A stretch of DNA of 64,000 bases from NCBI GenBank assembly GCA_963842815.1, contig CAWJHU010000001.1, forward strand, positions 264,708-328,707, written 5' to 3'. The notes beneath the pieces are model-generated. The model had not been told where the DNA came from. It worked only from the letters and a program-made list of their open reading frames with translations, and ran no database searches. Numbering within the stretch: position 1 is the stretch's first letter; the number at the start of each line of letters is the position of its first letter. The stretch is from Candidatus Nomurabacteria bacterium. Lineage in GTDB: Bacteria; Patescibacteriota; Minisyncoccia; Phycocordibacterales; UBA9973. Of this stretch, positions 883 to 40,267 are shown piece after piece. The position numbers were made by a program, and so were the translations under genes.

Positions 883-1716
883 ATGGACAGCATGTTAGGG
901 GAAAATAAAAACCTAAAAGACACCTCTAAAGATTCCATAAAAGACACTTCTTCTGCCTCCACTTCTTTGACTATGCCTTGGCGAGACCAAGCAGGGTATT
1001 TTAATAAAATAAACAAACTCATTACTGCCCTCTACATAGTAACAGACACGATGGAAAAAGATGAGCCACTGCGTCTAAAGTTAAGGACATTTGGAGTTGA
1101 AATTCTATCAGACATTGCTTCCTTGCCCAAAGGGACATTTGGCAACCTTGATGAAAAAATTACTGCAATTTTGTCCCTTTTGAATATTGCTTTTGACGTT
1201 AGAATGGTCTCTGAAATGAACTTCAATATCCTCAAAAAAGAGTTTTTGGAAATGAAGCAATCTATCCAAGAATTCACTAAACGCAATAATGCTTGGCTGG
1301 AAGAGTTCATAAATACTTCCTCTCCTTTTCAGGGGAAGACTGAGGAGGGGTTCTTGAAAAATTCACCTCACCCCAACCCTCTCCTGATAAAGGAGAGGGG
1401 GCAAGAAATTTCTAAAGGACAGGGTACCAGAATCGGTGTCCAAAAGGGAAGTACTTTAATGAAAGCTTTAAACAAGGTTGAAAGTGGAAATAACAATTTT
1501 GAAATAATAAAGAAGCAAAGAAGAGAATCAATAATAAAAATCATAAAAAATAAACCTATCGGCGCAAGCATAAAGGACATCATTCTTGCCGTTAGAAATC
1601 TCGGAGAAGAGATGGGAGAGAAAACCCTTCAAAGGGAGCTTGTCTCTATGGTAAAGGACAATGTCCTTAAGAAAACCGGAGAGAAACGTTGGTCTCTATA
1701 TTTTATAAATAGTTAG
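883..1716 (+). CDS. hypothetical protein with C-terminal winged-helix-like segment; carries an in-frame REP-A palindrome (alternative upstream start at 769)
   Basis: ORF 769..1716 in the track. ATG at 883 lies directly after TATATAAT; the C-terminus (GASIKDIILAVRNLGEEMGEKTLQRELVSMVKDNVLKKTGEKRWSLYFI) looks like a wHTH. Residues NSPHPNPLLIKERGQ are encoded by the palindromic repeat at 1366-1401. Confidence 0.4.
   Translation: MDSMLGENKNLKDTSKDSIKDTSSASTSLTMPWRDQAGYFNKINKLITALYIVTDTMEKDEPLRLKLRTFGVEILSDIASLPKGTFGNLDEKITAILSLLNIAFDVRMVSEMNFNILKKEFLEMKQSIQEFTKRNNAWLEEFINTSSPFQGKTEEGFLKNSPHPNPLLIKERGQEISKGQGTRIGVQKGSTLMKALNKVESGNNNFEIIKKQRRESIIKIIKNKPIGASIKDIILAVRNLGEEMGEKTLQRELVSMVKDNVLKKTGEKRWSLYFINS
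1366..1401. repeat. REP-A nested palindrome copy (CCTCACCC..CCCTCTCC-loop-GGAGAGGG), in-frame inside CDS 883..1716
   Basis: cacctcaccccaaccctctcctgataaaggagaggggg shares its core with copies at 5871, 6010, 6591 and 21676. Confidence 0.6.
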
Positions 1717-5857: not shown

Positions 5858-5870
5858 CAAGTTAGATTTA

Positions 5871-5915
5871 CCTCTCCCAACCCTCTCCTTATTAAGGAGA
5901 GGGCGAAGGGTGAGG
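5871..5915. repeat. REP-A nested palindrome copy
   Basis: cctctcccaaccctctccttattaaggagagggcgaagggtgagg lies immediately downstream of the stop of the 2357..5857 gene. Confidence 0.6.
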
Positions 5916-5980
5916 TCGGGAGTTTAGAATCTTAGTAAATAAATAGCATTAAGTAGTCGATTACTTAAAGCACAAAAAAA

Positions 5981-9465: not shown

Positions 9466-9486
9466 CCCCTGACCCTGGGTCAGGGG
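9466..9486. repeat. REP-B palindrome copy (CCCCTGACCCTGGGTCAGGGG) followed by T-run; likely also acts as terminator
   Basis: Perfect 21-bp palindrome 20 bp after the stop at 9446, followed by attttgttttgtt. Confidence 0.7.
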
Positions 9487-9532: not shown

Positions 9533-10021
9533 ATGAAAAACTCAAAGGGCAAGAATGTGTGGATAGGAGTGGCCGTGATATTAGTTGTAGCCATAATTGT
9601 TTTTCTGTTCAGTTTGTTAAAAAAGGAAACCGTCGGAGTAGATGGAATAATTTCACCCAACAGTAACAATACTGCTCTTTTTCCTCCGTCAACCCTAGAT
9701 ACCAGCGGTAGCTCTGTCCAAGGAACAAAACCAATCTCTATTTCTTATATTGATGCCTTGGCAAAATATGCCAATAAAAGAATTCAATTGGATAAAAATT
9801 GTCAGGCTTTTCCAAACACTGTTACCTACAAAGACAACACGGGAATTATGATAGACAACCGTTCTCCGGAAGTTCGCACGATAAAAATCGGAACAAGCTT
9901 TACGATAAAAGCTTGGGGATTTAAAATAATTACTCTGCCCAACGTTGTTCTCCAATCAAAAACCATCTTCGTTGATTGCGATAAATCTCTAAACGTAGCC
10001 ACCATTCTCGTCCAGGAATAA
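9533..10021 (+). CDS. hypothetical membrane-anchored/secreted protein
   Basis: 162-aa ORF with an N-terminal TM helix (VWIGVAVILVVAIIVFLFSLL) and no recognisable domain. Confidence 0.4.
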   Translation: MKNSKGKNVWIGVAVILVVAIIVFLFSLLKKETVGVDGIISPNSNNTALFPPSTLDTSGSSVQGTKPISISYIDALAKYANKRIQLDKNCQAFPNTVTYKDNTGIMIDNRSPEVRTIKIGTSFTIKAWGFKIITLPNVVLQSKTIFVDCDKSLNVATILVQE

Positions 10022-10105
10022 AAACTAAAATTCCCCTGACCCAGGGTCAGGGGAAGAGAGGTTTTCCACATAATTTAAGGCACTTGTAATGTTATAATAA
10101 GTAGA

Positions 10106-10810
10106 ATGACATATAGAAAAACTCCTCTAATGTCTGGAGAATATTTTCATGTTTATAATAGAGGGAACAGTAAACAAGAAATTTTTTTAGATGATGAAGA
10201 TAGGAGTCGTTTTGTAAAATTACTTTACCTTTCCAATTCAAAAAAGTATATTAATTTCCGTGACGATATAGTAGGGCAAAAAATAGACGCTTTTGATTTT
10301 GGAAGAGGAGAACCCGTTGTATTCATTGGTGCATGGGTTTTAATGCCTAACCATTTTCATATTTACATAACTTCCCCTGACCCTGGGTCAGGGGAAACAG
10401 AAGAAAGCAAGAAAAATAAGAGGAATAAAGAAAATATTGCCTTTTTTATGAATAAACTTTGCTCAAGTTACGCTAAATATTTTAATAAAAAATATAGCCG
10501 TACAGGGTCTCTTTTTGAAGGGCCATTCAAATCTACTCATATTGAGGACGATAGTCAGGCGAAATATCTTTTTTCATATATACATCTTAATCCAATAAAA
10601 CTCATTGACTCAGGATGGAAAGATAATGGTATTAGTAATATAAAAACGGCGTTAGAACACTTGAATACATACAAGTGGAGTAGTTATCAAGATCATCGTG
10701 GGGTTTTAAGGAAAGAAAATAAAATTCTTAAATTAAATTCTTTTCCTGAATATTTTTCTGATATAAAAGATTTTGATTCAGAAATTATTTCTTGGTTGCA
10801 ATATATGTAA
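10106..10810 (+). CDS. REP-associated tyrosine transposase (RAYT), IS200/IS605 Y1 transposase family; contains an in-frame REP-B insertion
   Basis: GEYFHVYNRG, HUH motif in LMPNHFHIYI and catalytic Tyr region YIHLNPIK. SPDPGSG between the HUH and Tyr motifs is encoded by the palindrome at 10374-10394. A paralogue lies at 36636..37322. Confidence 0.7.
   Translation: MTYRKTPLMSGEYFHVYNRGNSKQEIFLDDEDRSRFVKLLYLSNSKKYINFRDDIVGQKIDAFDFGRGEPVVFIGAWVLMPNHFHIYITSPDPGSGETEESKKNKRNKENIAFFMNKLCSSYAKYFNKKYSRTGSLFEGPFKSTHIEDDSQAKYLFSYIHLNPIKLIDSGWKDNGISNIKTALEHLNTYKWSSYQDHRGVLRKENKILKLNSFPEYFSDIKDFDSEIISWLQYM
10374..10394. repeat. REP-B palindrome copy inserted in-frame within the RAYT CDS
   Basis: cccctgaccctgggtcagggg encodes SPDPGSG; the paralogous RAYT2 lacks this segment. 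Confidence 0.7.
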
Positions 10811-10899
10811 ATAATTTTTCCCCTGACCCAGGGTCAGGGGAAGAGAGGTTTTCCACAGAAATTGTTGGGATTGGAATGTTTTTAGAATATAATTAGAGA

Positions 10900-11538: not shown

Positions 11539-14500
11539 ATGAAATTAAAATCAGTAATCATATTATTGTTGTTTTTGTTACCACATTTACTTTTTGCCTC
11601 AACTTGTTCCAGTAATGGTTACACAGTCCTAACTGTTAATGGAATATTTACTGATGAAACTGGAGCAAAGAAAAATTCTGATAAACTGAAATATTATTTT
11701 GAAAATACTTACAACAACCAACCACTTATCGTTGATTTTCTTTATAATCAAACCCACCTCGCCGGTTTTGGGGATGTTATTGACTATGTAAAACAAGGGT
11801 TTTTTGATCAAAAATCGGATTATGACCTGGTGGAAATGCTGAATGACGCCAGTCAAAAAGTCACAACTCAAAAACTTCTCCTCGTTGCCCACTCTCAGGG
11901 CAATTTTTATGCCAATAACTTTTATGATAAAACTGCGTCACAGCCTGGAGGAGTTCCGAGCCAATCTATCGGTGTGTATGGTGTAGCCACTCCTGCCAAT
12001 CGTGTGGCCGGCGGAGGAAGATATTTAACTTCCGATACGGATAAAATTATTGCTGGTTTGGTCGGAGGTACTTTGGCTAGAACTATTATGTCGCCTAACG
12101 CACACATTGTTTTGCAAGAGGGTGATGACAAAAATGGGCATGATTTTTCCGGTGTTTATTTAAAATATCAAAGCGACAAAATTGTTTCCGATATTAAATC
12201 ATCCCTTGATAAACTTCAAAATAATGACGAGCAGGAATCGCAGGACCCTTGTATTTCTCCGCCGGAACTTACCGTTTTTCATAAGGCAGAAGGTGTGGCT
12301 CTTACGTCCGCTGATTTTCTTATAAATAACACAAAAAATGCTGCCGTTTATATTGGAAATGGCATATACAATACCGGCTTGGCGATTGGTAATGCTTTTT
12401 CGGGATTATTTGCCAATGTAGCCGAAATTTTGCCAAGTGGCAATAGTTTGACGACCCTTTCTCCCGATGTTTTGGAACCGACGGATAATCCTTTGGCAAG
12501 TTCTTTCCCGAATTCTTCTGTAAATCAGGAGCAGACATCAGAAATAATAGGAGAAACAGTTACAATTCCAACCACGGAGGCAACGCCTCCGTATACAGAA
12601 AATGTGACGAGTGACAAAATAATAACTACAACCGAATCCATTCCTGTTTCCAATATTCCCAAAGACGAAGAACCAATTTTTGAATTTCGCCGGGGTAATA
12701 ATGGCGCATCAATATCTCAGTCTGAATCCCAATCTGAAACTAAATCCGGGACAGGTTCATCCGGAGAAGAACAGGGAGGACAAGGAGGAAATAATAATTC
12801 ATCAGCTCCGGATATTATTCCTCCAATTATCACCCTGCTCGGCAATAATCCCGAAGTGGTTGTAAAAGGTTCTGCGTACACTGATGCCGGCATTATGGTT
12901 ACTGATGCAGTTGATAGCGCACCCACTTTCACAATGGAAGGAACGGTAAATATCAATACTGTCGGTGTTTACACTATTACCTATACCGCAAAAGATTCTT
13001 CCCAAAATATCGCTACCGCAACACGCACGGTGATAGTTGATGATGGGGCAAAATTAAATAGTCCTAATTTTGTCACTGTCTCCGGCAACTATGCCTATGT
13101 GGTTTCAAGCGCCGGCAATTCTTTTGAAATTATAGATATTTCCAATCCTTCCACTCTAGTGCATAAAAGTTCTCTAGTGCACAACAACGACAACATACAA
13201 CTTTATTCTCCCGGAGGAGTTGCCGTTTCCGGTGATTATGCTTACGTAGTTTCTTACAGTAATAATTTAAATGTTATTGATATCAGCAATCCTCTTTTAC
13301 CTACTATTAAAAGCACTTTAAAAAACGGCGATGGCGGGGCGCAACTTATTCATCCGAATTTTATAACTATTTCCGGCAATTACGCATATATTATTTCCTA
13401 TGGAGGACAGAATGTTGAAATAGTGGATATTTCCGACCCGATTTATCCTGCCCACAAAGGTTCGTATTATATAAATTCGCTTTCCGCGCCGACTTCTTTA
13501 TTTGTTTCCGGCAATTATATGTATTTGACATTTTCTGTTGTAGGGCAAAGCAGCGGAGGTCTTCAAATTTTAGATATTTCTAATCCAGCGCAGCCTGTTT
13601 TAAAAAGCACCGTGAATGATGGTTCCGGTGGAGCAACCATTTCCAATCCGCAATTCGTTTTTGTCTCCGGCAACTATGCTTATATTGCTTCTCGAGGGAC
13701 CAACACTCTTGAAATTATTGATGTTTCAAATCCCGGTTCACCGATTCACAAAGGAAAAATAACCGTTGGTGTTGCCCCGATTTCCGTATCCATTTCCGGC
13801 AATTATGCCTATGTAGCTTCTTTTGTCGGGAGCGCCCTTGAGGTCATAGATATTTCTGACCCAACTAATCCTATTCACAAAGGGAGTTTAGCGAATGGCG
13901 TTTATAATTCGGCTCTTTCTTACCCAACTTCTATTTTTATTTCCGGCAACCTTGCTTATATTTCTTCTTCAATGAGCAAAGCCTTGGAAGTTGTAAATAT
14001 TTCCGACCCGGCTAATCCGATTCATTTAAACAAAATATTAAATGGCGAATTTAATCATACAGACCCGCCTGTCATAATCCCTTCAGCTCCTCCGGCAGAT
14101 ACTACTCCGCCTGTAATTTCTGCGCTTTCTATTTCTCCGTCGCCGGCTGTTTCCGGCTATGCGAAAATTGGCGACACCATAACCCTTTCCATCACCGCTG
14201 ATTCTGCGGGATATACGGCGAAGGCTATCAGCATTAATAATGTTTCCGTAACAAATTTTACCGATAATGGAAATGGGATGTATACAGCTACCTACACTGT
14301 TTCATCCGGAGATAATGATGTGGTTTCCGGCACTATTCCTGTCAGTGTTGTTTTGACTGATGCGGCTGGAAATTCAAATATTGCATATACCACAGTGATA
14401 GCAAATAAATTAAAAATTGACGCCCATGAACCGATTCTCATTTTTGCCAATGTTACTTCAGCGACTACTATCGATGCCACATTCAGCGAAGATATTGATG

Positions 14501-14736
14501 GAAAAACAGTCAATTCTACCGGCACTGAATTTACAGTTTCAGGGCATCCGGTTTTGAGCGCTCATGAATTAGAAGGTGTCGTGACGTTAACTCTCGGAAC
14601 GGCTATCGGAGCAGGGGAAAAACCCGATGTCACATTTCAAAGTACTTTATTTAAAGATGTTGCCGGCAATGAAGCCATAAGTCCGGCCACGGTAACGGCA
14701 ATAAATGACGTGATTTCTCCTCCGTCTTTGGAATAA
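11539..14736 (+). CDS. large secreted protein: N-terminal alpha/beta-hydrolase (lipase/esterase-like, GxSxG = AHSQG), Ig-like (DUF5011/HYR-like) domain, ~8 LVIVD-type beta-propeller repeats, C-terminal Ig-like domains
   Basis: Signal peptide; LLLVAHSQGNFYANNFYD nucleophile elbow; PPIITLLGNNPEVVVKGSAYTDAGI...GVYTITYTAKDSSQNIATATRTVIV; repeated SGNYAYVxSxxxNxLEIIDISNPxxPxHKGS units. Confidence 0.6.
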   Translation: MKLKSVIILLLFLLPHLLFASTCSSNGYTVLTVNGIFTDETGAKKNSDKLKYYFENTYNNQPLIVDFLYNQTHLAGFGDVIDYVKQGFFDQKSDYDLVEMLNDASQKVTTQKLLLVAHSQGNFYANNFYDKTASQPGGVPSQSIGVYGVATPANRVAGGGRYLTSDTDKIIAGLVGGTLARTIMSPNAHIVLQEGDDKNGHDFSGVYLKYQSDKIVSDIKSSLDKLQNNDEQESQDPCISPPELTVFHKAEGVALTSADFLINNTKNAAVYIGNGIYNTGLAIGNAFSGLFANVAEILPSGNSLTTLSPDVLEPTDNPLASSFPNSSVNQEQTSEIIGETVTIPTTEATPPYTENVTSDKIITTTESIPVSNIPKDEEPIFEFRRGNNGASISQSESQSETKSGTGSSGEEQGGQGGNNNSSAPDIIPPIITLLGNNPEVVVKGSAYTDAGIMVTDAVDSAPTFTMEGTVNINTVGVYTITYTAKDSSQNIATATRTVIVDDGAKLNSPNFVTVSGNYAYVVSSAGNSFEIIDISNPSTLVHKSSLVHNNDNIQLYSPGGVAVSGDYAYVVSYSNNLNVIDISNPLLPTIKSTLKNGDGGAQLIHPNFITISGNYAYIISYGGQNVEIVDISDPIYPAHKGSYYINSLSAPTSLFVSGNYMYLTFSVVGQSSGGLQILDISNPAQPVLKSTVNDGSGGATISNPQFVFVSGNYAYIASRGTNTLEIIDVSNPGSPIHKGKITVGVAPISVSISGNYAYVASFVGSALEVIDISDPTNPIHKGSLANGVYNSALSYPTSIFISGNLAYISSSMSKALEVVNISDPANPIHLNKILNGEFNHTDPPVIIPSAPPADTTPPVISALSISPSPAVSGYAKIGDTITLSITADSAGYTAKAISINNVSVTNFTDNGNGMYTATYTVSSGDNDVVSGTIPVSVVLTDAAGNSNIAYTTVIANKLKIDAHEPILIFANVTSATTIDATFSEDIDGKTVNSTGTEFTVSGHPVLSAHELEGVVTLTLGTAIGAGEKPDVTFQSTLFKDVAGNEAISPATVTAINDVISPPSLE

Positions 14737-14754
14737 AGCCCCGTCGGGTGTTTT

Positions 14755-14774
14755 CCCTGACCCTGGGTCAGGGG
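14755..14774. repeat. REP-B palindrome copy (one C short)
   Basis: ccctgaccctgggtcagggg lies 19 bp after the stop at 14736. Confidence 0.65.
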
Positions 14775-18364: not shown

Positions 18365-19152
18365 GTTCTGATATACTCTTTTAATCAGTATGAATATCAC
18401 AAGAAACAGTTTAAAAAGGCGGTTTTAAGCAGGCTTTCTTTTGTCTGTTGGCCGCCTGAAAGGCGGTTTTTTTGTTCACAGTAAGGCTTGAATATTGACA
18501 ACTTAAATCCTGTTCTGGCTTTCGAGGGTCTTTTCAAAGTGCCAGAGACAGGAAAAAATTCTAAAAAATTATTTCCGAGCGGTCGGTTCAATAATTTTTT
18601 TTGAGTTTTGTTTTACCCTGATGTAATGTCAGGGTTGTGGTTTGTAAATTTCTTAACAGGAAATTTAAGGGCGTACGGTGGATGCCTTGACTTTAAGAGG
18701 CGATGAAGGACGTGGCGTTGCTGCGATAAGCTTCGGGGAGGTGCTTAGCTACCTTTGATCCGGAGATTTCCGAATGGGGAAACCCTATCAAGTAAACCTT
18801 GATAATTTTGATCTTTATGCTCAAAATGCGCACCCTGGGAAGTGAAACATCTTAGTACCAGGTGGAAAAGAGACAAATATGAATTTCCCTAGTAGCGGCG
18901 AGCGAAAAGGAAAAAGCCCAAACCGTTCTCGCAAGAGAGCGGGGTTGTAAGATGACAATTTTTATTTAATTAAAGAAGAGTCAAAAAATAAATTATTAGT
19001 TGAAGTTGCTGGAAAGCGACACCATAGGAGGTGATAGTCCCGTAAACGAAAATAATTTATCTCTTTTATTGTTATTCTTGAGTACCCCAGGACATGAATG
19101 GCCGGGGGGAATCCGGCGGAACTAACCGCTAAGGCTAAATACTCTTAAAGAT

Positions 19153-19189
<37 letters not shown>

Positions 19190-19877
19190 CAGCCCGATTA
19201 GGGCGGTGAAATAGACCTGAACCCGTATGTCTACAAGGAGTCGAAGCTAGGTATTTATATCTAGACGACGGCGTGCCTATTGAAGAATGAGCCAACGAGT
19301 TTATTCATATTGCAAGGCTAAGCTGGCTAAAACAGCGCAGCCAAAGGGAAACCGAGTGTTAATAGCGCGAATGAGTAGTATGCATAAGACCCGAAGCCAG
19401 GTGAGCTTGCCATGAGCAGGATGAAGTTCGTCGAAAGACGAATGGAGGTCCGAACCGGTAGATCGTTCAACGTCTTCGGATGACTTGTGGTAAGGAGTGA
19501 AAAGCTAATCGAACCTGGTAATAGCTGGTTCTCTCCGAAATAGCTTTAGGGCTAGCGTCGAGTGTTTTTTCTGGGGGTAGAGCACTGGAAGGTTCGGACA
19601 GGTCGAAAGATCGCTGAACCTATCAAACTCCGAATACCAGAAACCAAAGCTCGGCAGTTAGGCTATGGGGGCGAAGCTCCATTAGCCAAAAGGGAAACAG
19701 CCCAGATCTCAAAATAAGGTCCCTAAATTTATGCTAAGTGTAAAATAAGAAGGTGAAATTTCTCTGACAATGAGGAGGTTGGCTTAGAAGCAGCCATCCT
19801 TTAAAGATAGCGTAACAGCTCACTCATCTAGAGATTTTGCGTCGAAAATAATTGGGGCTAAGCATAGTACCGAATTT

Positions 19878-20222
19878 GAGGATTCGTGAACTTCATAGAG
19901 GAAAAGTTTTTTTTTGTTCTTTGTTTTTATTTTCTTGCTCGGGTAGCTCAAGCGGTGGAGCATTGGATTTTCTTTATAGTCCAAAGGTTGTGGGTTCAAG
20001 TCCCATCCCGGGTACGAAAAGAGGCCATCAGCGATTGGTCTCTTGCTAGATAGATATTGAGAAACTACTATGTCAATTTGATTGAAGCGCAAATAGAACT
20101 TCATGATTTTGATATAGGCAGGTGAGATCCCTGCTCTAGCACTAATTTATTGGCAAACTTTTTTAAAAATTTAATTTTAAAAAAGTTTGCCTCTTCTATG
20201 AAGTTCACGAATGGTAGGAGAG
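19878..20222 (+). other. intervening sequence / expansion in 23S helix 45 (~345 nt) closed by a 20-bp stem; contains a tRNA-like segment and a perfect 40-bp AT-rich hairpin
   Basis: Insertion follows ACCGAATT, where E. coli has the short helix 45. attcgtgaacttcatagagg (19883-19902) pairs with cctcttctatgaagttcacgaat (20194-20216). Internal gggtagctcaagcggtggagca...ggttcaagtccca at 19936-20010 resembles tRNA D- and T-arms. ggcaaacttttttaaaaatttaattttaaaaaagtttgcc spans 20146-20187. Confidence 0.5.
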
Positions 20223-20932
20223 TGTTCCACTCTGCTGTGAAGCAGGACTCGTGAGAGCCTGTGGAGCGTGTGGAAGTAAGAATGTTGGCACAAGTAACCG
20301 CAATGATGCTGAGAACGCATCACGTCGAAAGATCAAGGTTTCCTTGGTAATGTCAATCAGCCAAGGGTTAGTCGGGCCTAAGGGAATGGCGAAAGCCGTA
20401 CTCGATGGACAGCAGGTTAATATTCCTGCACTTCTGTATTTTGTGATGGGAGGACGGAGCGCAGTATGTATTGCTCATTATTGGATTTGAAGTTTGTTTA
20501 TTAAGAATGTTGCATAGGAAAATCCGTGCATTGCCTTTAAGTGGCGCATTCAAGAGAAATGAAAAGTTTTCGACTTCGGTCGAAGGATAATGATACAAAG
20601 CGCGCTTCCAAGAAAAATCTCTAAACTTAAAAATATAGAATCCGTACCGCAAACCGACACAGGTGATCAGGTCGAGTAGACCAAGACGAACGAGTGAGTG
20701 GTCCCCAAGGAACTCGGCAAAAAAGCAGCCGTAACTTCGGGATAAGGCTTGCCCCATATTCTATGTTATGGGGCCGCAGCGAAAGTTTCTCTGGCAACTG
20801 TTTACCAAAAACACAGCTCCCTGCGAACTCGCAAGAGGATGTATAGGGGGTGACACCTGACCAATGCCAGAAGGTCAAATATCGACGGTGCTATGGTCGC
20901 AAGATTGTAGTGCATGATTGATATAAGCCCTG

Positions 20933-20975
<43 letters not shown>

Positions 20976-21630
20976 ACCTTGTCGGGTAAGTTCCGACGCG
21001 CACGAATGGTGTAATGACTGGAGAACTGTCTCGGGGACCAGCTCGGTGAAAATACAATGCCGGTGAAGATGCCGGTTAAGTGCAGTTAGACGAAAAGACC
21101 CTAGAAGCTTTACTATAACTTGATATTGAGCATGTTTTTGGACTGCGTAGCATAGATGGGAGAGGTTTGATGTGTTCGTTTTCGGATGAATTCTACTCGT
21201 CAGTGAAATACCATTCTTTTTGAAGGCATGTTCTAACCAATACGGCAAAAACGTATTGAGACAGTATCTGGTGGATAGTTTTACTGGGGCTGTACCCTCC
21301 TAAAAAGTAAAGGAGGGGTTTAAAGGTCAGCTAGGCGCGAATGGAAACCGTGCCGATAGTGTAATGGCACAAGCTGGCTTGACTGTAAGAGGTACATCTC
21401 AAGCAGGTGGGAAACCAGAACATAGTGATCCGACCATACGCATTAGATGCGGTGGAAGATCAACGGATAAAAGCTACTCTAGGGATAACAGGCTAGTTCC
21501 GCCTAAGAGTTCATATCGACGGCGGAGTTCGGCACCTCGATGTCGGCTCACCTTAGCGCGGCGGTGGAGAAGCTGCCAAGCGTTTGGCTGTTCGCCAATT
21601 AAAAAGGTACGCGAGCTGGGTTCAGACCGT

Positions 21631-21970
21631 TTAGAACCTCACTCGCCCTAACGGATCTTCTCCATGAAATTTCAAGGAGAGGGCTGGGGTGAGGGTTAAA
21701 CAGTTTGAACCCTCAGAGGAAGAAAATTTATTACGAAATTAGAACTGTTATAAATTGAAATCAATCATTGCTAAGTTTTAGCAATCACGGCGGCGCTTTG
21801 TAGAAATACAAAGTGAGCAAGCTAACTTATATCGGAGAAACCCAATTCGCGAAAGCGAAGGACAACGCCGAGGGAAGAGTTATTTACTCACCCGTAGAGA
21901 CTGAATGTTAGCAATCTCGCAATAGATTAATGTCACAGTCCAATCCCATAAGTAATTATGGACGTAGATG
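21631..21970 (+). ncRNA. ORF-less group-I-like intron in 23S rRNA at the position homologous to E. coli ~2593 (I-CreI/I-CeuI homing-site region)
   Basis: Exon sequence GGGTTCAGACCGT | CGTGAGACAGGTTGG is interrupted by 340 nt. The 5' exon ends in T and the insert ends in G (omega-G). Candidate P7 pairing GAGACTG/CAGTCC and a GCGAAAGC GNRA hairpin are present. No ORF of 60 aa or more lies inside. Confidence 0.55.
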
Positions 21971-22301
21971 CGTGAGACAGGTTGGTCTCCTATCTACTGC
22001 ACTCGTTGATTCTTGAGAAGATTTGTTTCTAGTACGAGAGGACCGAAATGAACTGACCTCTGGTGTACGAGCTCTCCTGCCAAGGGCAATGCTCGGTAGC
22101 TATGTCGGGATTGGATAACCTCTGAAAGCATCTAAGAGGGAAGCCAGCTTCAAGATTAGGAATCGTTAAGAACCGTGAGAGATGATCACGTTGATAGGCT
22201 TTAAGTGTAAGCGCAGTAATGCGTTGAGCTGAGAAGTACTAATGTTTCGATTCCTGTTAAGAAATTTGCAAACCACAAAAAATAATAAACTTGAATATAG
22301 T

Positions 22302-30220: not shown

Positions 30221-30259
30221 AGTTTCTATTTTCTCCTTTATTTTGTTATACTTTAACCA

Positions 30260-30768
30260 TGCAGGATAAATTTTTCGGTTCAAAATTAAACAGCGTTTTG
30301 CTTCTAATTCTCATTATTTTAGTGGCTGGGGCCATATATATTATGCTTCAAAATAAAGAAACATACCTGAATATTTTTGGTATTTCCCCTGACCCTGGGT
30401 CAGGGGAACAAGAGCCGGTGCAGAACAAAGATGGAATTTTAGGGAACAAGGATGATTTAATTTCTTTTTCCATTTCACCTTACACTAAAGTTCATGGAAT
30501 TTTGTCCTATAGGGGAGTGATTCAAGGCGGATATTTTTTTGAAGGCAATATTTTGATAAACATTCTTGATGCTAAAAAAAATATTTTAAAGAAAAGCAAT
30601 GCAGTTGCTAAGACAGAATGGACGACATCAGGATCAGTCAATTTCGAAGGAAATGTTGATTTTACCGGACTTCCAAAAGGTTCTGCTTATTTTGAAATCC
30701 ATAACGACAACGCTTCCGGCCTTCCGAAAAATGATAAATCCATTTTAATCCCAATTATTATTGAATAA
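30260..30768 (+). CDS. hypothetical membrane-anchored protein carrying an in-frame REP-B palindrome
   Basis: Preferred start MQDKFFGSKL at 30260; the track ORF 30097..30768 begins inside the upstream gene. N-terminal TM; ISPDPGSGE is encoded by the palindrome at 30386-30406. Confidence 0.45.
30386..30406. repeat. REP-B palindrome copy in-frame in CDS
   Basis: cccctgaccctgggtcagggg. Confidence 0.7.
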
Positions 30769-36595: not shown

Positions 36596-37316
36596 CTACG
36601 GAGGCGTTGCCTCCGTAGCCGTCTCCGTGGATGAATTATTCGTCGTTAAAACTTAGCCATTCAAACAGCTCTTTTTTATAATCAGTCAGTTTTTTAAAAT
36701 AAGCGGGAAATTCTGATGGATTTATAATTTTAAATTTTCCATCTTTGTATTCTTCCATGCTTGAATATGGATATTCAAAAACATATTGTAAAAGTTTCGT
36801 TAAAGGTTTGTTTCTTTCTTCTTTCCAATTTTTGTCTATCAATTTAGCGGGATTTAAATGTATATAGGAATATATGTATTTTAAATATCTATCGTTGTTT
36901 ATGTGGATTGATTTAAATACTCCTTCATATAATTTGCCTGTTCGTTCATATTTTTTATTGAAATACATTGAATAACTAGTCATTAATTTATGTATGTATT
37001 TAGAAATTCCATTTTCTGTCTTTTCACGAACAAGAATATGAAAATGATTTGGCATTAAGCAATATGCTCCTATATTAACTATAGTTTTTCCACGATCAAA
37101 ATTTTTGCCAATATTTCTTAACTCTATACTTTTTGTTGTATTACAAATATGCATTAAAAACAAAAAGTGCTCATAATCTTTTTTATCTATAAAAATAACC
37201 CTTTTTTCCGTTCCACGATTATATAAATGATAATACTCGTTTGGAGCGAAAGATTGTTTTCTTAAGGCCATTTGTTGATTATAACAAAAGGGGACTACGG
37301 AGGCAACGCCTCCGTG
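36596..37316 (-). mobile_element. REP-RAYT unit 2: second Y1 (RAYT-like) transposase gene bracketed by REP-C palindromes (ACGGAGGC-GTT/AAC-GCCTCCGT) and by an imperfect ~25-bp direct repeat of the adjacent gene terminus
   Basis: CTACGGAGGCGTTGCCTCCGTAG at 36596-36618 and CTACGGAGGCAACGCCTCCGTG at 37295-37316. ttaggaagttggagttgttgttgtaac (36571-36597) matches ttaagaggtcggagttgttgttgtagt (37325-37351) at 22 of 25 positions. Confidence 0.6.
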
Positions 37317-37327: not shown

Positions 37328-40267
37328 TTAAGAGGTCGGAGTTGTTGTTGTAGTGGTATCTGTTGCTGGCGTTGTAGTTGTATCTGTTGAAGAATTGGTA
37401 TCGGTAGAAGTTGTATCTGAAGGTGGGGTGGTTGTATCTGTACTTTCCGTAGTTGTGGTGCTTCCTACCGTTACGGTTCTAGTGACCGGCGTTGCCGAAT
37501 GTCCGACCGAATCTGTTGCAGTGTAGGTGATGGTGTAAGTGCCGGCAGTGGATGTGTCAACCGAACCGTTTACCACCACAGCCACATCACCTTCTTTTTC
37601 TGTGGCTACTGCTCCGGCTTCATTATAAGTTGCTCCGATATCCAAGACTACTGTTGTTTCTCCGTTGAGAGTAATAACCGGTACATCCACATCTCCGGAA
37701 GAAATCGTTCCACCTGCTAAGGTAGAACTATCTGATGACGGAGGCAACGCCTCCGTAATGGGGGTGGTAGAAATAAGTGCTGTAGCTGGGGCGCATTCTC
37801 CGAGCGTGGTTTTAGCTTCTCCGTTTACTATAGAGAAACAATTTGGATTGCCGTTTGCTTCATCATAAAGAGTTATGCCGGTAGGTTTTTCCGGACTTCC
37901 GATTTTCAATGCATCCACCACTAAAGATTTCATATAAGCTACGCCGTCTTGAACTTTTACCAGCGCGTCGCTGAAGAAAGAAACAGCATCTTGGCCGAGC
38001 GTGTCGGTAATAATTTGGCCTTTATTCAAATTTTCTATTTGCAGATTTAATTCTTTGATGGAAGCCATTAATAATCCATTCACTGATACTTGGTCAATGG
38101 TATTACCCCACATAAATGCCGGGTCAACTTCATCAGCTATAAATCCGATGCGAACTTTAGCCAGAGGAGAATCGGTGCCATAACCATTAACTTCGTTTTT
38201 ATAACGGAAAGTGTGAAGCGGCGCAGTTAGCACCATATTGAGAGCATCGCTATAATCAGTGTAATCTTTGATATCTTGTTTTGTATTTCTGGTGGAAGTT
38301 TGAGTGCCGATAACTATGCCGGATGTATCATTGGCGCTGGAAGGAGCGGAGTCGCTAACTCTCATATTTCCGGCAGAATCTTGCCAAACATAGCCGGCTC
38401 CGCCGGATTTGTTTAGGAAATTAATAGAACCGGCGGCAGGATCGGTAGTATTTATATTTATACCAAGAGTAATTGTTGGTCCGGCTGTTCCGTCACCTAA
38501 ATCGGAAGAGCCGATTTCTAATACGGTGCTTGGTGTTGCCGTCCCGATACCGATGTTGCCTGAAGAATCAACGACCAGATTTTTCTCTCCGATGGTTAAA
38601 GTATCGGCCGTTAATTTGCCGGTAAAACTAGCGTCGCCATTTTCATTCAAAGTAAAAATATCCGCGCCATTTTGGTTTTTAAAAATCAAACCTTCCGGAT
38701 TACCCGGGCCCTCGGTGATTTTAAAGTTGTTGGCAAAAACTACATCGCCGAAGAACTGGGCGGTTGAAGTGGTGCTATTATTGCCGAGCTGAATCTCACT
38801 AGAGGAAATACCTAAACCAACTTGGTAAGAAGTAGGGGTCGTAGTTAAATTGCCATTGGAATCAACATAATATATTGAACCTGGGGTTAAACCTGTCAAA
38901 CCGTCAGCCACTCCGGAAATAATTACCGGCACACTTTGCCCAGATGAGGTGGTAGTTTTTACTATGCCGACAAATTTTCCAGATGAAGAATAATTAATAA
39001 TAGACTCGCCACTAGTACTGCCACCTCTATTATAAATTACCACGAAATGGGAGGAATCAAGATTGGCTATGGAAATATAATTAGTAGTAGTAGTGCCATT
39101 AAATATAACAGCCGCATTAGGGTAAGTAATAGTTGTACCGGAAGAAACTAGTCCTACTATACTGGCACCATAACCACTAATATTGGCATAAGCTACTGCA
39201 AAATGAGTGGCATCAAGCATTGCCACAGAAATATATGAGGTGGTAGCAGAATTAAAAGCAAGAATTGCACCGTAAGTAATAGTCGTACCGGAAATTGAAC
39301 CTGCTCTGGCAGCACCAAAATCGGTAGCATTATACCAAGCCACCACAAAGTGGGTGGTATCAAGCGTTGCCACGGAATTATATGTAGTGGTAGCATTGGA
39401 CGAAAATTGAACAGGTGTTGTGCCGTAAGTAATGGTGGTGCCAGAAATAGAATTCGCTTTGGCCCAACCGTAACCGGTACTGGTAACCGTATAAGCCACC
39501 ACGAAATTATTGGCACCAAAGGCGGCTACTGAAATATTTGAACAGGCAACAGACCCATCAAAACTAGAAGCTGCAGTAAAAAAGGAAAAGGTTGTACCGG
39601 AAGAAATTAATCCCACCCTGGCAGCACCATAATCGGTAGCATTATACCAAGCCACTACGAAACTAGAAGAACTAAGCGTGGCTACGGAAATATATGAAGT
39701 GGCAACAGAAGCCGAAAATTGAACAGCTGCACCGTAGGCAATGACATTACCGCTGGAAACGGTACCTATAATGGCAGTACCATAAGTGGTACCATTATAA
39801 TAAGCTACCACGAAACTAGAAGAACTAAGCGCAGATACGGAAATATAGGTAGTGGTAGTACCATTGAATGTAAGAGGTGAACCATAAGAAATAGTTGTGC
39901 CGGAAATTGAGCCGATAACGGCGAGGCCAAGGCTGTTTTTAGTATCTGCATAAGCCACCACGAAGTGAGTGGAATCAAGTACAGCTGCAGAAAAAGGGCT
40001 TGTTGGGTTAATATCTGTAAATGCAGCAACTACACCATAAGAAGAAATGGTCGTGTCGCCGTTAGTAAGACCCACAATAGCATTGCCATAATTGTTAGTA
40101 CCAGCGGAATAGTTTGCCACAAAATGGGTGGAATCAAGTGCGGCTATGGAATCATAATCATTACTAGAAACAGAATAAAAAGCAACACCTGCGCCGGTAG
40201 TAATAGTTGTACCGGAGACCAGTCCCACCCTAGCGGCGTGAATATTATTCGCATAATAGTTTACCAC
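37328..40267 (-). CDS. C-terminal part of a giant tail-fibre-like surface protein: ~14 tandem ~45-aa beta repeats, intramolecular-chaperone (Peptidase_S74-like) domain, Ig-like (DUF5011/HYR-like) domain, Thr/Ser-rich tail; probably one gene with 40245..43883, split by a 1-nt frameshift
   Basis: Repeats of type YG.A.VG..SGTTITYG...F....TTYISVA.LDS.HFVVAY. Chaperone-like segment NTKQDIKDYTDYSDALNMVLTAPLHTFRYKNE...RIGFIADEVDPAFMWGN...SVNGLLMASIKELNLQI matches the C-terminal intramolecular chaperone of phage tail fibres/endosialidases. In-frame REP-C copy at 37737-37758. Confidence 0.6.
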   Translation of the reverse strand: MVNYYANNIHAARVGLVSGTTITTGAGVAFYSVSSNDYDSIAALDSTHFVANYSAGTNNYGNAIVGLTNGDTTISSYGVVAAFTDINPTSPFSAAVLDSTHFVVAYADTKNSLGLAVIGSISGTTISYGSPLTFNGTTTTYISVSALSSSSFVVAYYNGTTYGTAIIGTVSSGNVIAYGAAVQFSASVATSYISVATLSSSSFVVAWYNATDYGAARVGLISSGTTFSFFTAASSFDGSVACSNISVAAFGANNFVVAYTVTSTGYGWAKANSISGTTITYGTTPVQFSSNATTTYNSVATLDTTHFVVAWYNATDFGAARAGSISGTTITYGAILAFNSATTSYISVAMLDATHFAVAYANISGYGASIVGLVSSGTTITYPNAAVIFNGTTTTNYISIANLDSSHFVVIYNRGGSTSGESIINYSSSGKFVGIVKTTTSSGQSVPVIISGVADGLTGLTPGSIYYVDSNGNLTTTPTSYQVGLGISSSEIQLGNNSTTSTAQFFGDVVFANNFKITEGPGNPEGLIFKNQNGADIFTLNENGDASFTGKLTADTLTIGEKNLVVDSSGNIGIGTATPSTVLEIGSSDLGDGTAGPTITLGININTTDPAAGSINFLNKSGGAGYVWQDSAGNMRVSDSAPSSANDTSGIVIGTQTSTRNTKQDIKDYTDYSDALNMVLTAPLHTFRYKNEVNGYGTDSPLAKVRIGFIADEVDPAFMWGNTIDQVSVNGLLMASIKELNLQIENLNKGQIITDTLGQDAVSFFSDALVKVQDGVAYMKSLVVDALKIGSPEKPTGITLYDEANGNPNCFSIVNGEAKTTLGECAPATALISTTPITEALPPSSDSSTLAGGTISSGDVDVPVITLNGETTVVLDIGATYNEAGAVATEKEGDVAVVVNGSVDTSTAGTYTITYTATDSVGHSATPVTRTVTVGSTTTTESTDTTTPPSDTTSTDTNSSTDTTTTPATDTTTTTTPTS
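37737..37758. repeat. REP-C palindrome copy in-frame within the giant gene (encodes ..TEALPPS..)
   Basis: gacggaggcaacgcctccgtaa. Confidence 0.65.

What the first reader, a model, noticed from the sequence alone, without database searches (positions are those of the whole stretch)
10374..10394. REP palindromes inserted in-frame into protein-coding genes, including the RAYT gene itself
Four CDSs carry a complete palindrome in-frame without stops: RAYT1 (10374-10394, SPDPGSG), hypothetical 30260..30768 (30386-30406, SPDPGSGE), the giant surface gene (37737-37758, REP-C, TEALPPS), and CDS 883..1716 (1366-1401, REP-A, NPLLIKERG). RAYT2 lacks the segment that REP-B adds to RAYT1: HFHILV-REKTE versus HFHIYI-TSPDPGSGETEESKKNKRNKE. 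The insertions therefore look recent and tolerated, analogous to Rickettsia palindromic elements that create new peptide segments.
Basis: seen in the sequence. Interest (0 to 1): 0.7.

Follow-up and report, generated by a model that had tools for sequence, protein, structure and literature searches.

The report
Transposase gene carries its own palindrome
A short palindromic repeat that normally sits between genes is also found, in frame, inside the gene of the enzyme thought to move it; this is not a recent accident, because in a whole clade of ultra-small bacteria it sits at the same spot and changes in step with each genome's own repeat.

Summary
The 21-nt palindrome at 10374-10394 is real, with 6 copies in the window against 0 expected, and lies in frame in RAYT1 as S90-PDPGSG-E97. 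The other three in-frame cases also exist, and I found a fifth at 12574-12592.

CDS 883-1716 shows a clean 10-aa gain against a syntenic orthologue. In the Gmad2-like CDS about 110 of 120 orthologues lack the repeat, but REP-B replaced about 12 linker residues rather than adding to them. The two surface-protein cases sit in hypervariable linkers and cannot be proven.

For RAYT1, "recent insertion" is refuted. Homologues at 56-77% identity carry a palindrome in the same loop after the HUH motif: 58 of 78 genome loci, and 60 of 67 metagenome loci. Its sequence differs between genomes with compensatory changes, 94% paired against 68% when shuffled. It matches the REPs about 50 nt upstream and about 10 nt downstream of the same gene.

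More distant RAYT2-like relatives lack the segment, so the acquisition was ancient and single. The internal copy is a full member of a co-evolving REP triad. I found no description of this in the REP/RAYT papers I searched. Its function is inferred, not shown; my leading guess is a RAYT-recognised cis element giving negative feedback.

The parts
10374..10394 (+). Internal REP-B copy inside RAYT1 (full palindrome 10372-10396). It encodes S90-PDPGSG-E97.
   Evidence: It folds as an 11-bp hairpin: RNA -20.4 kcal/mol (z -3.96), DNA -11.9 kcal/mol (z -4.2). It lies in a low-confidence loop of the AF2 model.
10106..10810 (+). RAYT1, a Y1 HUH transposase of the clade that carries an internal REP.
   Evidence: H83, H85, Y158 and the YIHLNP motif are invariant in alignment A1. 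NCBIfam REP_Tyr_transpos scores 36.9 bits, below its cutoff of 80. There is no Pfam Y1_Tnp hit. The best PDB fold match is 4er8_A, E. coli TnpA_REP bound to REP (E 1.7e-6).
10031..10100 (+). Upstream REP-B (10033-10053), followed by TTTTCCACA (10062) and TATAAT (10093), then the RAYT1 ATG.
   Evidence: It forms a 70-nt direct repeat with 10818-10887 (family D18).
10818..10887 (+). Downstream REP-B (10820-10840), 10 nt after the RAYT1 stop, followed by TTTTCCACA (10849).
9466..9486 (.). Intergenic REP-B copy followed by a T-run; it looks like a terminator.
14754..14774 (.). Intergenic REP-B copy with 1 mismatch, after CDS 11539-14736.
30386..30406 (+). REP-B copy in frame in the linker of the Gmad2-like protein (CDS 30259-30768), after the N-terminal hydrophobic segment I read as a transmembrane helix.
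   Evidence: Orthologue comparison.
1366..1401 (+). Truncated REP-A copy in frame in CDS 883-1716.
   Evidence: It is a 10-aa gain relative to the syntenic orthologue.
5870..5916 (.). Full-length intergenic REP-A copy.
37738..37756 (-). REP-C copy in frame (TEALPPS) in surface-protein CDS 37328-40267. It lies in the linker between the Peptidase_S74 and Ig-like domains.
12574..12592 (+). REP-C copy in frame (TTEATPPYT) in CDS 11539-14736.
   Evidence: It lies in a stretch of about 31 aa that the syntenic orthologue lacks.
36636..37271 (-). RAYT2, a second RAYT with a short loop and no internal REP.
   Evidence: Pfam Y1_Tnp 36.2 bits. It is 38% identical to RAYT1, with a gap at the REP segment. 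Sequence.
37297..37315 (.). REP-C upstream of RAYT2 (loop GTT on the gene strand), followed by TTGTTATAAT.
36598..36616 (.). REP-C downstream of RAYT2 (loop AAC on the gene strand), inverted relative to the upstream copy.

Best explanation
The window comes from a Paceibacteria-type (candidate phyla radiation) genome. It holds two REP/RAYT systems: RAYT1 with REP-B, and RAYT2 with REP-C.

Most REP copies are intergenic. A few have landed in disordered, Pro/Gly/Ser/Thr-rich linkers of non-essential-looking proteins, where they are translated and tolerated. This is the known, Rickettsia-RPE-like situation.

The copy inside RAYT1 is different. It is the local example of a clade-wide feature. An ancestor of this RAYT clade acquired a copy of its REP in the loop between the HUH beta-strand and the following helix. 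That copy has since been kept at the same place and almost always in the same frame. It persists as an intact hairpin-forming palindrome whose sequence tracks the genome's current REP.

Each locus is therefore a triad: an inverted REP about 50 nt upstream of the ATG, the in-frame internal REP, and a REP about 10 nt after the stop.

Shown: the fixed position, the base-pair covariation, the match to the flanking REPs, the conserved catalytic residues, and the loop location.

Inferred: the hairpin is kept because the RAYT, which by analogy with E. coli TnpA_REP binds its REP hairpin on single strands, also recognises this copy. My preferred role is negative feedback on its own gene. This could work by binding or cleaving the extruded hairpin, or by stalling ribosomes or processing the mRNA at a -20 kcal/mol stem. 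It would also keep gene and repeat family in register.
For: Position is conserved while sequence varies. Nearly all of the 120 closest homologues read PNHFHIYITS-P-x-P-G-x'-G-E, with x and x' paired as a palindrome requires: D/S, S/E, T/V, I/I, K/L, R/L. Other lineages read PKSDLGE or HMSDMW.

At the DNA level, 58 of 78 genes have a perfect arm of 8 nt or more in the 81 nt after HUH. Only 10 of 468 control windows in the same genes do. The loop nucleotide falls at codon position 3 in 35 of 41 one-nucleotide-loop cases.

Covariation on 44 sequences is strong. 94.1% of cells are paired against 68.3% when shuffled, and 11 of 12 pairs change on both sides. The covariation score is 0.691, against 0.188 shuffled and 0.08-0.135 when the pairing is slid. 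The unpaired centre base varies freely (G16, C14, A8, T6).

The internal palindrome equals the local REP. In 59 of 68 loci it recurs at about -280 and +460 nt from the HUH codon. The metagenome contigs, which overlap in part with the genome set, show the same: an internal palindrome in 60 of 67 genes, a matching upstream copy in 50 of 55, and a matching downstream copy in 39 of 50.

In 86 loci with all three copies, the internal copy differs from each flank no more than the flanks differ from each other (3.4 and 3.2 against 3.0 differences per 26 nt). Its stem is equally good (11.4 of 13 paired).

Some internal copies differ from their flanks by compensated pairs, for example L026, L065 and L015.

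The segment is clade-specific. 50%-cluster representatives at 35-45% identity are RAYT2-like, with a short loop and no excess of palindrome-compatible peptides (5% against 5.6% in controls). The close set shows 63% against 2.2%.

The protein looks functional. HUH and Tyr are invariant, the fold matches 4er8, and the locus is syntenic with a 78%-identical relative whose REP type differs at all of its copies.

Other REPs near these genes are intergenic in 26 of 28 cases.
Against: No experiment or transcript data bears on function. Everything beyond the statement that this is a conserved, co-evolving nucleic-acid element is inference.

The internal copy behaves exactly like its flanking copies. 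This is equally what a functionless passenger would show if the process that keeps all REPs alike also homogenised it.

It is not followed by a T-run, so it is not a canonical intrinsic terminator.

The palindromes used for covariation were chosen by a palindrome search, so the paired percentage is inflated by selection. The control windows and the independent match to flanking REPs answer this only in part.

About 10-25% of clade members have a degenerate internal palindrome, so it is dispensable at least for a time.

The REPs lack the GTAG or CGTC tag that E. coli-type RAYT recognition needs. The analogy to TnpA_REP binding is therefore untested here.
Confidence: 0.55

Rival explanations
1. 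Selfish passenger. A REP once landed in a tolerant loop of the RAYT. It persists only because the process that homogenises all REPs of a genome also rewrites this copy. That process could be RAYT-mediated copying, hairpin-templated repair, or short-tract gene conversion using the shared outer CCC/GGG stem as homology. The copy does nothing for the gene or the host.
For: The internal copy is statistically indistinguishable from the flanking copies in divergence and stem quality.

The outer stem is conserved and the inner stem is variable, which would allow patch conversion.

The mosaic genes L021 and L018 carry the resident REP type on a foreign backbone.

The encoded peptide is a low-confidence loop with no consistent chemistry.

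A minority of genes have decayed copies.
Against: The copy is retained across a clade reaching down to about 55% identity, at a rate as high as the flanking REPs, despite the added burden of staying translatable.

Compensated differences between the internal and flanking copies in some loci show that the internal stem is maintained in its own right.

Other REPs essentially never persist inside genes in these loci (2 of 28).
Confidence: 0.3
2. One reading: all in-frame copies, including the one in RAYT1, are recent, independently tolerated insertions of mobile REPs, like Rickettsia palindromic elements.
For: This holds for CDS 883-1716, which shows a clean 10-aa gain.

It holds broadly for the Gmad2-like gene, where most orthologues lack the repeat.

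Different REPs sit in the same Gmad2 linker in other lineages, which shows repeated insertion.

RAYT2 lacks the segment.
Against: For RAYT1, the segment is present at the same site, mostly in the same frame, in the great majority of clade members. Independent insertions would not hit one loop and one phase hundreds of times.

In Gmad2 the repeat replaced linker residues rather than adding to them.
Confidence: 0.05
3. Protein-level selection. The loop peptide (SPxPGxGE and its variants) is what matters. The DNA palindrome is a by-product, because Pro (CCN) and Gly (GGN) codons are reverse complements.
For: The closest group shares a P-x-P-G-x-G-E pattern. The loop adjoins the helix that follows the HUH strand; I suggest, without a residue alignment, that this is the helix bearing the hairpin-contacting residues R78 and K82 of E. 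coli TnpA_REP (PMC3479197).
Against: The variable residues covary as base pairs, not as any chemical class. Other lineages encode HMSDMW, HKSDLW, AEARLP or PKQGFG.

Stem third-codon positions are fixed by pairing while the loop third position is free.

The same 21-25 nt recur in non-coding DNA on both sides of the gene.

The AF2 confidence is below 50.
Confidence: 0.03
4. Recombination or processing module. The internal and downstream REPs lie on the same strand in the same orientation, like the left and right ends of an IS200/IS605 element. The RAYT could therefore excise or exchange the 3' half of its own gene, for self-inactivation or for shuffling of gene halves.
For: In the three-nucleotide-loop families the downstream copy has the orientation of the internal one in 12 cases against 3, and the upstream copy is inverted in 13 against 3.

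N-terminal and C-terminal half identities correlate only weakly (r = 0.38), and clear mosaics exist.
Against: The best-supported mosaic breakpoints fall at residues 50-70, upstream of the REP at about 90-97.

No detached RAYT half-genes are seen in the window.

Orientation is uninformative in the one-nucleotide-loop families.
Confidence: 0.07

Closest known systems
REPtron / REP-RAYT systems (E. coli TnpA_REP, Pseudomonas REPIN-RAYT)
   Same: A single-copy, vertically inherited Y1 HUH transposase gene is bracketed by copies of the genome's short palindromic repeat in inverted orientation. The enzyme and repeat co-evolve. The fold matches 4er8 (PMC3333891; PMC8266576).
   Different: A third, in-frame copy of the cognate REP sits inside the coding sequence at a fixed site. 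This was not mentioned in the REP/RAYT papers I could search.

The REPs are perfect 10-13 bp palindromes with TT/AA extensions and no GTAG or CGTC tag. They are mostly singlets rather than REPIN doublets.

The proteins fall below the NCBIfam RAYT cutoff, and RAYT1 misses Pfam Y1_Tnp.
Rickettsia palindromic elements and other intragenic REPs (Di Nocera et al. 2013, PMC3733652)
   Same: Palindromic repeats are inserted in frame in protein-coding genes, translated into short extra peptides, and tolerated in variable regions. This fits the Gmad2-like, CDS 883 and surface-protein cases.
   Different: Those insertions are sporadic and lineage-specific, in unrelated genes. The RAYT1 copy is clade-wide, fixed in position, and always the cognate repeat of the enzyme it interrupts.
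IS200/IS605 insertion sequences
   Same: Both have a Y1 HUH transposase and subterminal hairpins recognised on single-stranded DNA. Two same-strand hairpins delimit the mobile segment.
   Different: Here the gene is single-copy and syntenic between relatives. The hairpins are identical perfect palindromes rather than distinct left and right ends. One of them lies within the ORF.

Membership tests
REP/RAYT (REPtron) | Y1 transposase with an HUH motif and a catalytic Tyr, and a TnpA_REP-like fold | tested here: met
   H83, H85, Y158 and YIHLNP are invariant in A1. The AF2 model (pLDDT 77) has 4er8_A as its top PDB hit, E 1.7e-6.
REP/RAYT (REPtron) | Passes the curated family HMM thresholds (NCBIfam REP_Tyr_transpos, Pfam Y1_Tnp) | tested here: not met
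   NCBIfam scores are 36.9 bits (RAYT1) and 39.1 bits (RAYT2) against a cutoff of 80. Pfam Y1_Tnp is hit only by RAYT2, at 36.2 bits against 23; RAYT1 has no hit.
REP/RAYT (REPtron) | The gene is flanked by copies of the genome's REP, typically inverted | tested here: met
   RAYT1 is flanked by REP-B at 10033 and 10820, and RAYT2 by REP-C at 37297 and 36598 with inverted loops. The same holds in 59 of 68 related loci.
REP/RAYT (REPtron) | The repeat is multi-copy and predominantly extragenic | tested here: met
   There are 6 REP-B, 4 REP-C and 2 REP-A copies in 64 kb. 26 of 28 extra copies near related RAYTs are intergenic. Whole-genome copy number was not available.
REP/RAYT (REPtron) | A conserved 5' tetranucleotide tag (GTAG or CGTC) at the foot of the hairpin | tested here: not met
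   The flanks are TT(T)/(A)AA extensions of the palindrome. No GTAG or CGTC is seen at any copy.
REP/RAYT (REPtron) | The RAYT binds and cleaves its REP on single-stranded DNA | not testable with these tools
   This requires biochemistry.
RPE-like in-frame palindromic insertions | The repeat lies in frame, without stops, inside a real gene | tested here: met
   There are five cases in the window. The host genes have conserved orthologues or Pfam domains.
RPE-like in-frame palindromic insertions | Close orthologues lack the insert (a lineage-specific gain) | tested here: inconclusive
   Met for CDS 883, a clean 10 aa. Met with replacement for Gmad2. Unprovable for the surface proteins. Not met for RAYT1, where clade members carry it.
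IS200/IS605 autonomous insertion sequence | Multiple near-identical copies of the element, and not syntenic between relatives | tested here: not met
   The two RAYTs are only 38% identical. There are no further copies or fragments in the window. The RAYT1 locus is syntenic with relative L083.

The most novel reading that the evidence does not exclude
The in-frame REP is a functional cis element through which a domesticated transposase is coupled to its own repeat family. The enzyme recognises a copy of its substrate inside its own gene or mRNA, which limits its expression or activity. Because that copy is translated, every protein of the clade spells out its cognate REP in its own sequence. 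The clade would then be a natural, thousands-strong record of RAYT-REP specificity switching.
Probability: 0.4. Interest if true: 0.85.

Novelty: new variant of a known kind. Interest (0 to 1): 0.7.

Why it matters
REPs are by name extragenic. How RAYTs and REPs stay matched over long periods is an open question in the field. Here the cognate REP is embedded in the transposase ORF and co-varies with the flanking copies across hundreds of genomes.

This gives three practical gains.
- The REP of an uncultured genome can be read from the RAYT protein or gene sequence alone.
- There is a large natural series of specificity switches: the same backbone, the same locus, and a different inner stem.
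- There is a concrete, testable candidate for self-regulation of a domesticated transposase.

It also shows that the general claim, REPs inserted in genes, is ordinary here, while the RAYT case is of a different nature.

Tried and rejected
- PDB sequence searches. The RAYT1 profile and RAYT2 found no TnpA_REP match. Only the fold search did.
- REP-B pattern scan of JGI metagenome contigs. An exact scan gave 0 hits, so I could not make a REP-centred census.
- Internal REP as the recombination breakpoint of mosaic RAYTs. Breakpoints map to residues 50-70, not to the REP.
- REP type tracking one half of the protein. REP distance correlates equally with both halves.
- Internal REP as an intrinsic terminator. 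It has no T-run and the scan does not call it.
- Detached RAYT fragments in the window. None were found.
- Rfam. No family matches any REP; only rRNA and tRNA genes are found.
- Clean-insertion test for the giant surface gene. It failed for lack of close orthologues.
- Literature. I found no mention of an internal REP in RAYT genes, nor of RAYTs in Patescibacteria, in the searchable library. This is absence within that library only.
Full report
**What is in the window**

The sequence has 40% G+C. It encodes Paceibacteria/Nomurabacteria-type proteins; the nearest homologues are named Candidatus Paceibacterota and Nomurabacteria.

Three palindromic repeat families occur.
- REP-B is TTCCCCTGACCCnGGGTCAGGGGAA. 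It has six copies against none expected in shuffles.
- REP-C is ACGGAGGC-AAC-GCCTCCGT, with four copies.
- REP-A is CCCTCTCC-n7-GGAGAGGG with outer arms, with two copies.

Two Y1 HUH transposase genes are present.
- RAYT1 (10106-10810, +) has REP-B 53 nt before its ATG, 10 nt after its stop, and once inside.
- RAYT2 (36636-37271, -) has inverted REP-C copies on both sides and none inside.

Both match NCBIfam REP_Tyr_transpos weakly, below its cutoff. Only RAYT2 reaches Pfam Y1_Tnp. They are 38% identical, with a 15-residue gap in RAYT2 exactly where RAYT1 has SPDPGSGETEESKKN.

**Checking the observation**

Four small corrections apply.
- The Gmad2-like CDS starts at 30259.
- The REP-A copy in CDS 883-1716 is truncated on its right side.
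- RAYT2's real start is the ATG at 37271, so the REP-C at 37297-37315 is upstream of the gene, not in it.
- A fifth in-frame copy exists: REP-C at 12574-12592 in CDS 11539-14736, reading TTEATPPYT.

**The ordinary cases**

A 70-kb metagenome contig (loci L081 and L083) is syntenic with the window. Its RAYT1 and Gmad2-like orthologues are 78% identical, its CDS 883 orthologue 60% and its CDS 11539 orthologue 40%.

CDS 883-1716. The orthologue lacks exactly 10 residues (30 nt) at the REP-A site. This is a clean gain. Just beside that site the relative has its own 15-bp-arm perfect palindrome in frame.

The Gmad2-like protein. About 110 of the 120 closest orthologues have an ordinary linker after the N-terminal hydrophobic segment, which I read as a transmembrane helix, for example NVFQKQVPVENVIDKTQEPMQ. 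Our linker, NIFGISPDPGSGEQEPVQ, is the same length or shorter. REP-B therefore replaced about 12 residues rather than adding 7-12. Several orthologues carry other REPs at the same place. These include a 27-nt palindrome in L086, a 55-nt REP doublet in L087, and a 23-nt palindrome in L089 with a second copy in that locus. The linker is thus a recurrent landing site.

CDS 11539-14736. Its REP-C copy lies in a stretch of about 31 residues absent from the syntenic orthologue.

CDS 37328-40267. Its REP-C copy lies in the linker between the Peptidase_S74 and Ig-like domains. That linker is hypervariable among homologues, and the best of them are only 55-57% identical. Insertion is plausible in both REP-C cases but cannot be proven.

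In-frame REPs of this sporadic kind are already documented, as Rickettsia RPEs and as the intragenic GTAG/CGTC REPs of PMC3733652.

**The RAYT1 case is not a recent insertion**

A protein search found 6234 relatives with E at or below 1e-10. Almost all of the 120 best (60-77% identical, 220-250 aa) have a segment right after PNHFHIYITS of the form P-x-P-G-x'-G-E. The residues x and x' pair as reverse-complementary codons require: D/S, S/E, T/V, I/I, K/L and R/L. More distant members read PKSDLGE, HMSDMW, HKSDLW, AEARLP or PKQGFG.

I fetched 80 loci from species-representative genomes. At the DNA level, 58 of 78 genes have a perfect palindrome arm of 8 nt or more within 81 nt after the HUH motif. 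Only 10 of 468 control windows in the same genes do. In one-nucleotide-loop palindromes the centre falls on codon position 3 in 35 of 41 cases.

Forty-four centre-anchored sequences give strong covariation.

| Measure | Observed | Shuffled | Pairing slid |
|---|---|---|---|
| Cells paired | 94.1% | 68.3% | 31-53% |
| Pairs changed on both sides | 11 of 12 | 8.1 | 6-10 |
| Compensatory cells | 134 | 38.5 | 19-32 |
| Covariation score | 0.691 | 0.188 | 0.08-0.135 |

The unpaired centre base, a synonymous third position, is free. The windows were chosen by a palindrome search, so the paired percentage is optimistic. The next result does not depend on that choice.

**The internal palindrome is the local REP**

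In 59 of 68 loci the same palindrome recurs at about -280 and about +460 nt from the HUH codon. These positions are about 50 nt upstream of the ATG and just after the stop.

In the three-nucleotide-loop families the upstream copy is inverted relative to the internal one in 13 cases against 3. The downstream copy is in the same orientation in 12 against 3.

Metagenome contigs, which overlap in part with the genome set, repeat the result. 60 of 67 genes have the internal palindrome. It is matched upstream in 50 of 55 and downstream in 39 of 50.

In 86 loci with all three copies, the internal copy differs from each flank about as much as the flanks differ from each other: 3.4 and 3.2 against 3.0 differences per 26 nt. 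Its stem is as good, at 11.4 of 13 positions paired.

Where my strict search missed a flank, the flank carries a related palindrome that differs by compensated pairs. An example is L026, with internal CCATAAGTC against flanking CCACAAGTC. In L016 the upstream copy is the exact reverse complement of the internal one, including its T-T mismatch.

The syntenic relative has a different REP (CCGTACCCC/GGGGTACGG) at both its upstream and internal sites. A decayed palindrome that looks like another REP type sits at the old -45 position. Other REP copies near these genes are intergenic in 26 of 28 cases.

**How old and how wide**

I searched one representative per 50%-identity cluster. It found 10626 relatives at E up to 1e-3, 1931 up to 1e-10, and 104 up to 1e-30.

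Only roughly the 15 closest clusters have the long post-HUH segment. The bulk, at 35-45% identity, read PNHFHLLVKE..GGISKFMQKL like RAYT2. They show no excess of palindrome-compatible peptides (5% against 5.6% in control windows). The close set shows 63% against 2.2%.

The segment is therefore a derived character of one RAYT clade, acquired once and kept.

**Where it sits in the protein**

AlphaFold2 with a 30-sequence alignment gives pLDDT 77 and pTM 0.78. The REP-encoded residues 90-99 form the loop between the HUH strand (83-89) and a long helix (100-129), with pLDDT below 50 at 93-98.

The model's best PDB match is E. coli TnpA_REP bound to a REP hairpin (4er8_A, E 1.7e-6). HUH and the catalytic Tyr motif are invariant in the clade, so the proteins look functional.

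**How it most likely works**

Shown: a position-fixed, frame-fixed, hairpin-forming copy of the cognate REP inside the ORF. It is maintained at the nucleic-acid level and evolves in concert with the flanking REPs.

Inferred: it is kept because the RAYT recognises it. E. coli TnpA_REP binds its REP hairpin on single-stranded DNA and cleaves nearby (PMC3479197; PMC3333891). I favour negative feedback on the RAYT's own gene. The hairpin is strong: RNA -20.4 kcal/mol (z -4.0) and DNA -11.9 kcal/mol (z -4.2). It is not a canonical terminator.

The main rival is that the copy is a functionless passenger, kept alike by whatever homogenises all REPs. The equal behaviour of internal and flanking copies fits both views. 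So does the patch-like presence of the resident REP type in the mosaic genes L021 and L018. The compensated differences between internal and flanking copies, and the near-absence of other intragenic REPs, lean towards a maintained element.

A purely protein-level explanation is excluded by the covariation and by the non-coding twins. A role as the recombination junction is not supported, because the breakpoints map upstream of the REP.

**Comparison with what is known, and novelty**

The system works like a REPtron and has the RAYT fold and flanking architecture. It fails the curated HMM cutoffs and lacks the GTAG/CGTC tag.

Sporadic in-frame REPs are known. A conserved cognate REP inside the RAYT gene is not mentioned in the key REP/RAYT papers I could search. 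I also found no paper treating RAYTs in Patescibacteria. I rate it a new variant of a known kind.

**Verdict**

Interest is 0.7, because the RAYT case gives a readable, clade-wide record of enzyme-repeat co-evolution and a testable self-regulation hypothesis.

Noticed in passing
window 10062-10070 and 10849-10857, plus 9 other sites; downstream REP flanks in L003, L007, L009, L012, L018, L021 and others: The DnaA-box-like motif TTWTCCACA occurs 11 times in the window against 2.2 expected. It follows the REPs on both sides of RAYT1 by 8-10 nt. It also lies just 3' of the downstream REP in 14 of 47 related loci, although the REP sequences differ. Its role is unknown; it could be a promoter element, a DnaA or regulator site, or a RAYT cleavage or guide site.
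   Followed up: partly
window 9533-10021: A 162-aa ORF with no Pfam hit lies between two REP-B copies (9466 and 10033). It is absent from the syntenic relative L083. It may be a REP-bounded gene gain.
   Followed up: partly
window 18654-22261: The 23S rRNA gene spans 3608 nt against a 2925-nt model. It contains a tRNA-like Rfam hit at 19937-20014, and ORF 20368-20757 lies on the minus strand. It probably holds an intron or insertion, as is common in these bacteria.
   Followed up: no
L083:2342-2370: The relative's orthologue of CDS 883-1716 carries its own perfect palindrome with 15-bp arms, in frame: GGTCGGACCTCCTCC-aaaat-GGAGGAGGTCCGACC. It sits right beside the site where the window has REP-A, so this linker attracts palindromes in both genomes.
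   Followed up: partly
L086:10095, L087:557, L089:448 (Gmad2-like orthologues): REPs of different sequence, including a 55-nt inverted doublet, occupy the same linker in orthologous Gmad2-like genes. They lie next to a native AT-rich palindrome that encodes ETYLNVF. This is a recurrent insertion hot spot.
   Followed up: partly
L021 and L018 (RAYT genes): These RAYT genes are mosaics. The first 50-65 residues resemble the L069 group, and the rest is 78-86% identical to the L009 group. The internal REP is nevertheless of the resident, L069-like type.
   Followed up: partly
L083:9842-9990: Upstream of the relative's RAYT, an intact REP sits about 150 nt from the ATG. A decayed palindrome that looks like another REP type occupies the usual -45 position. 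This suggests REP turnover at the locus.
   Followed up: no
window 10093-10108 and 37271-37290: For both RAYT genes a TATAAT-like box ends about 7 nt before the ATG, with no room for a Shine-Dalgarno sequence. The transcripts may be leaderless.
   Followed up: no
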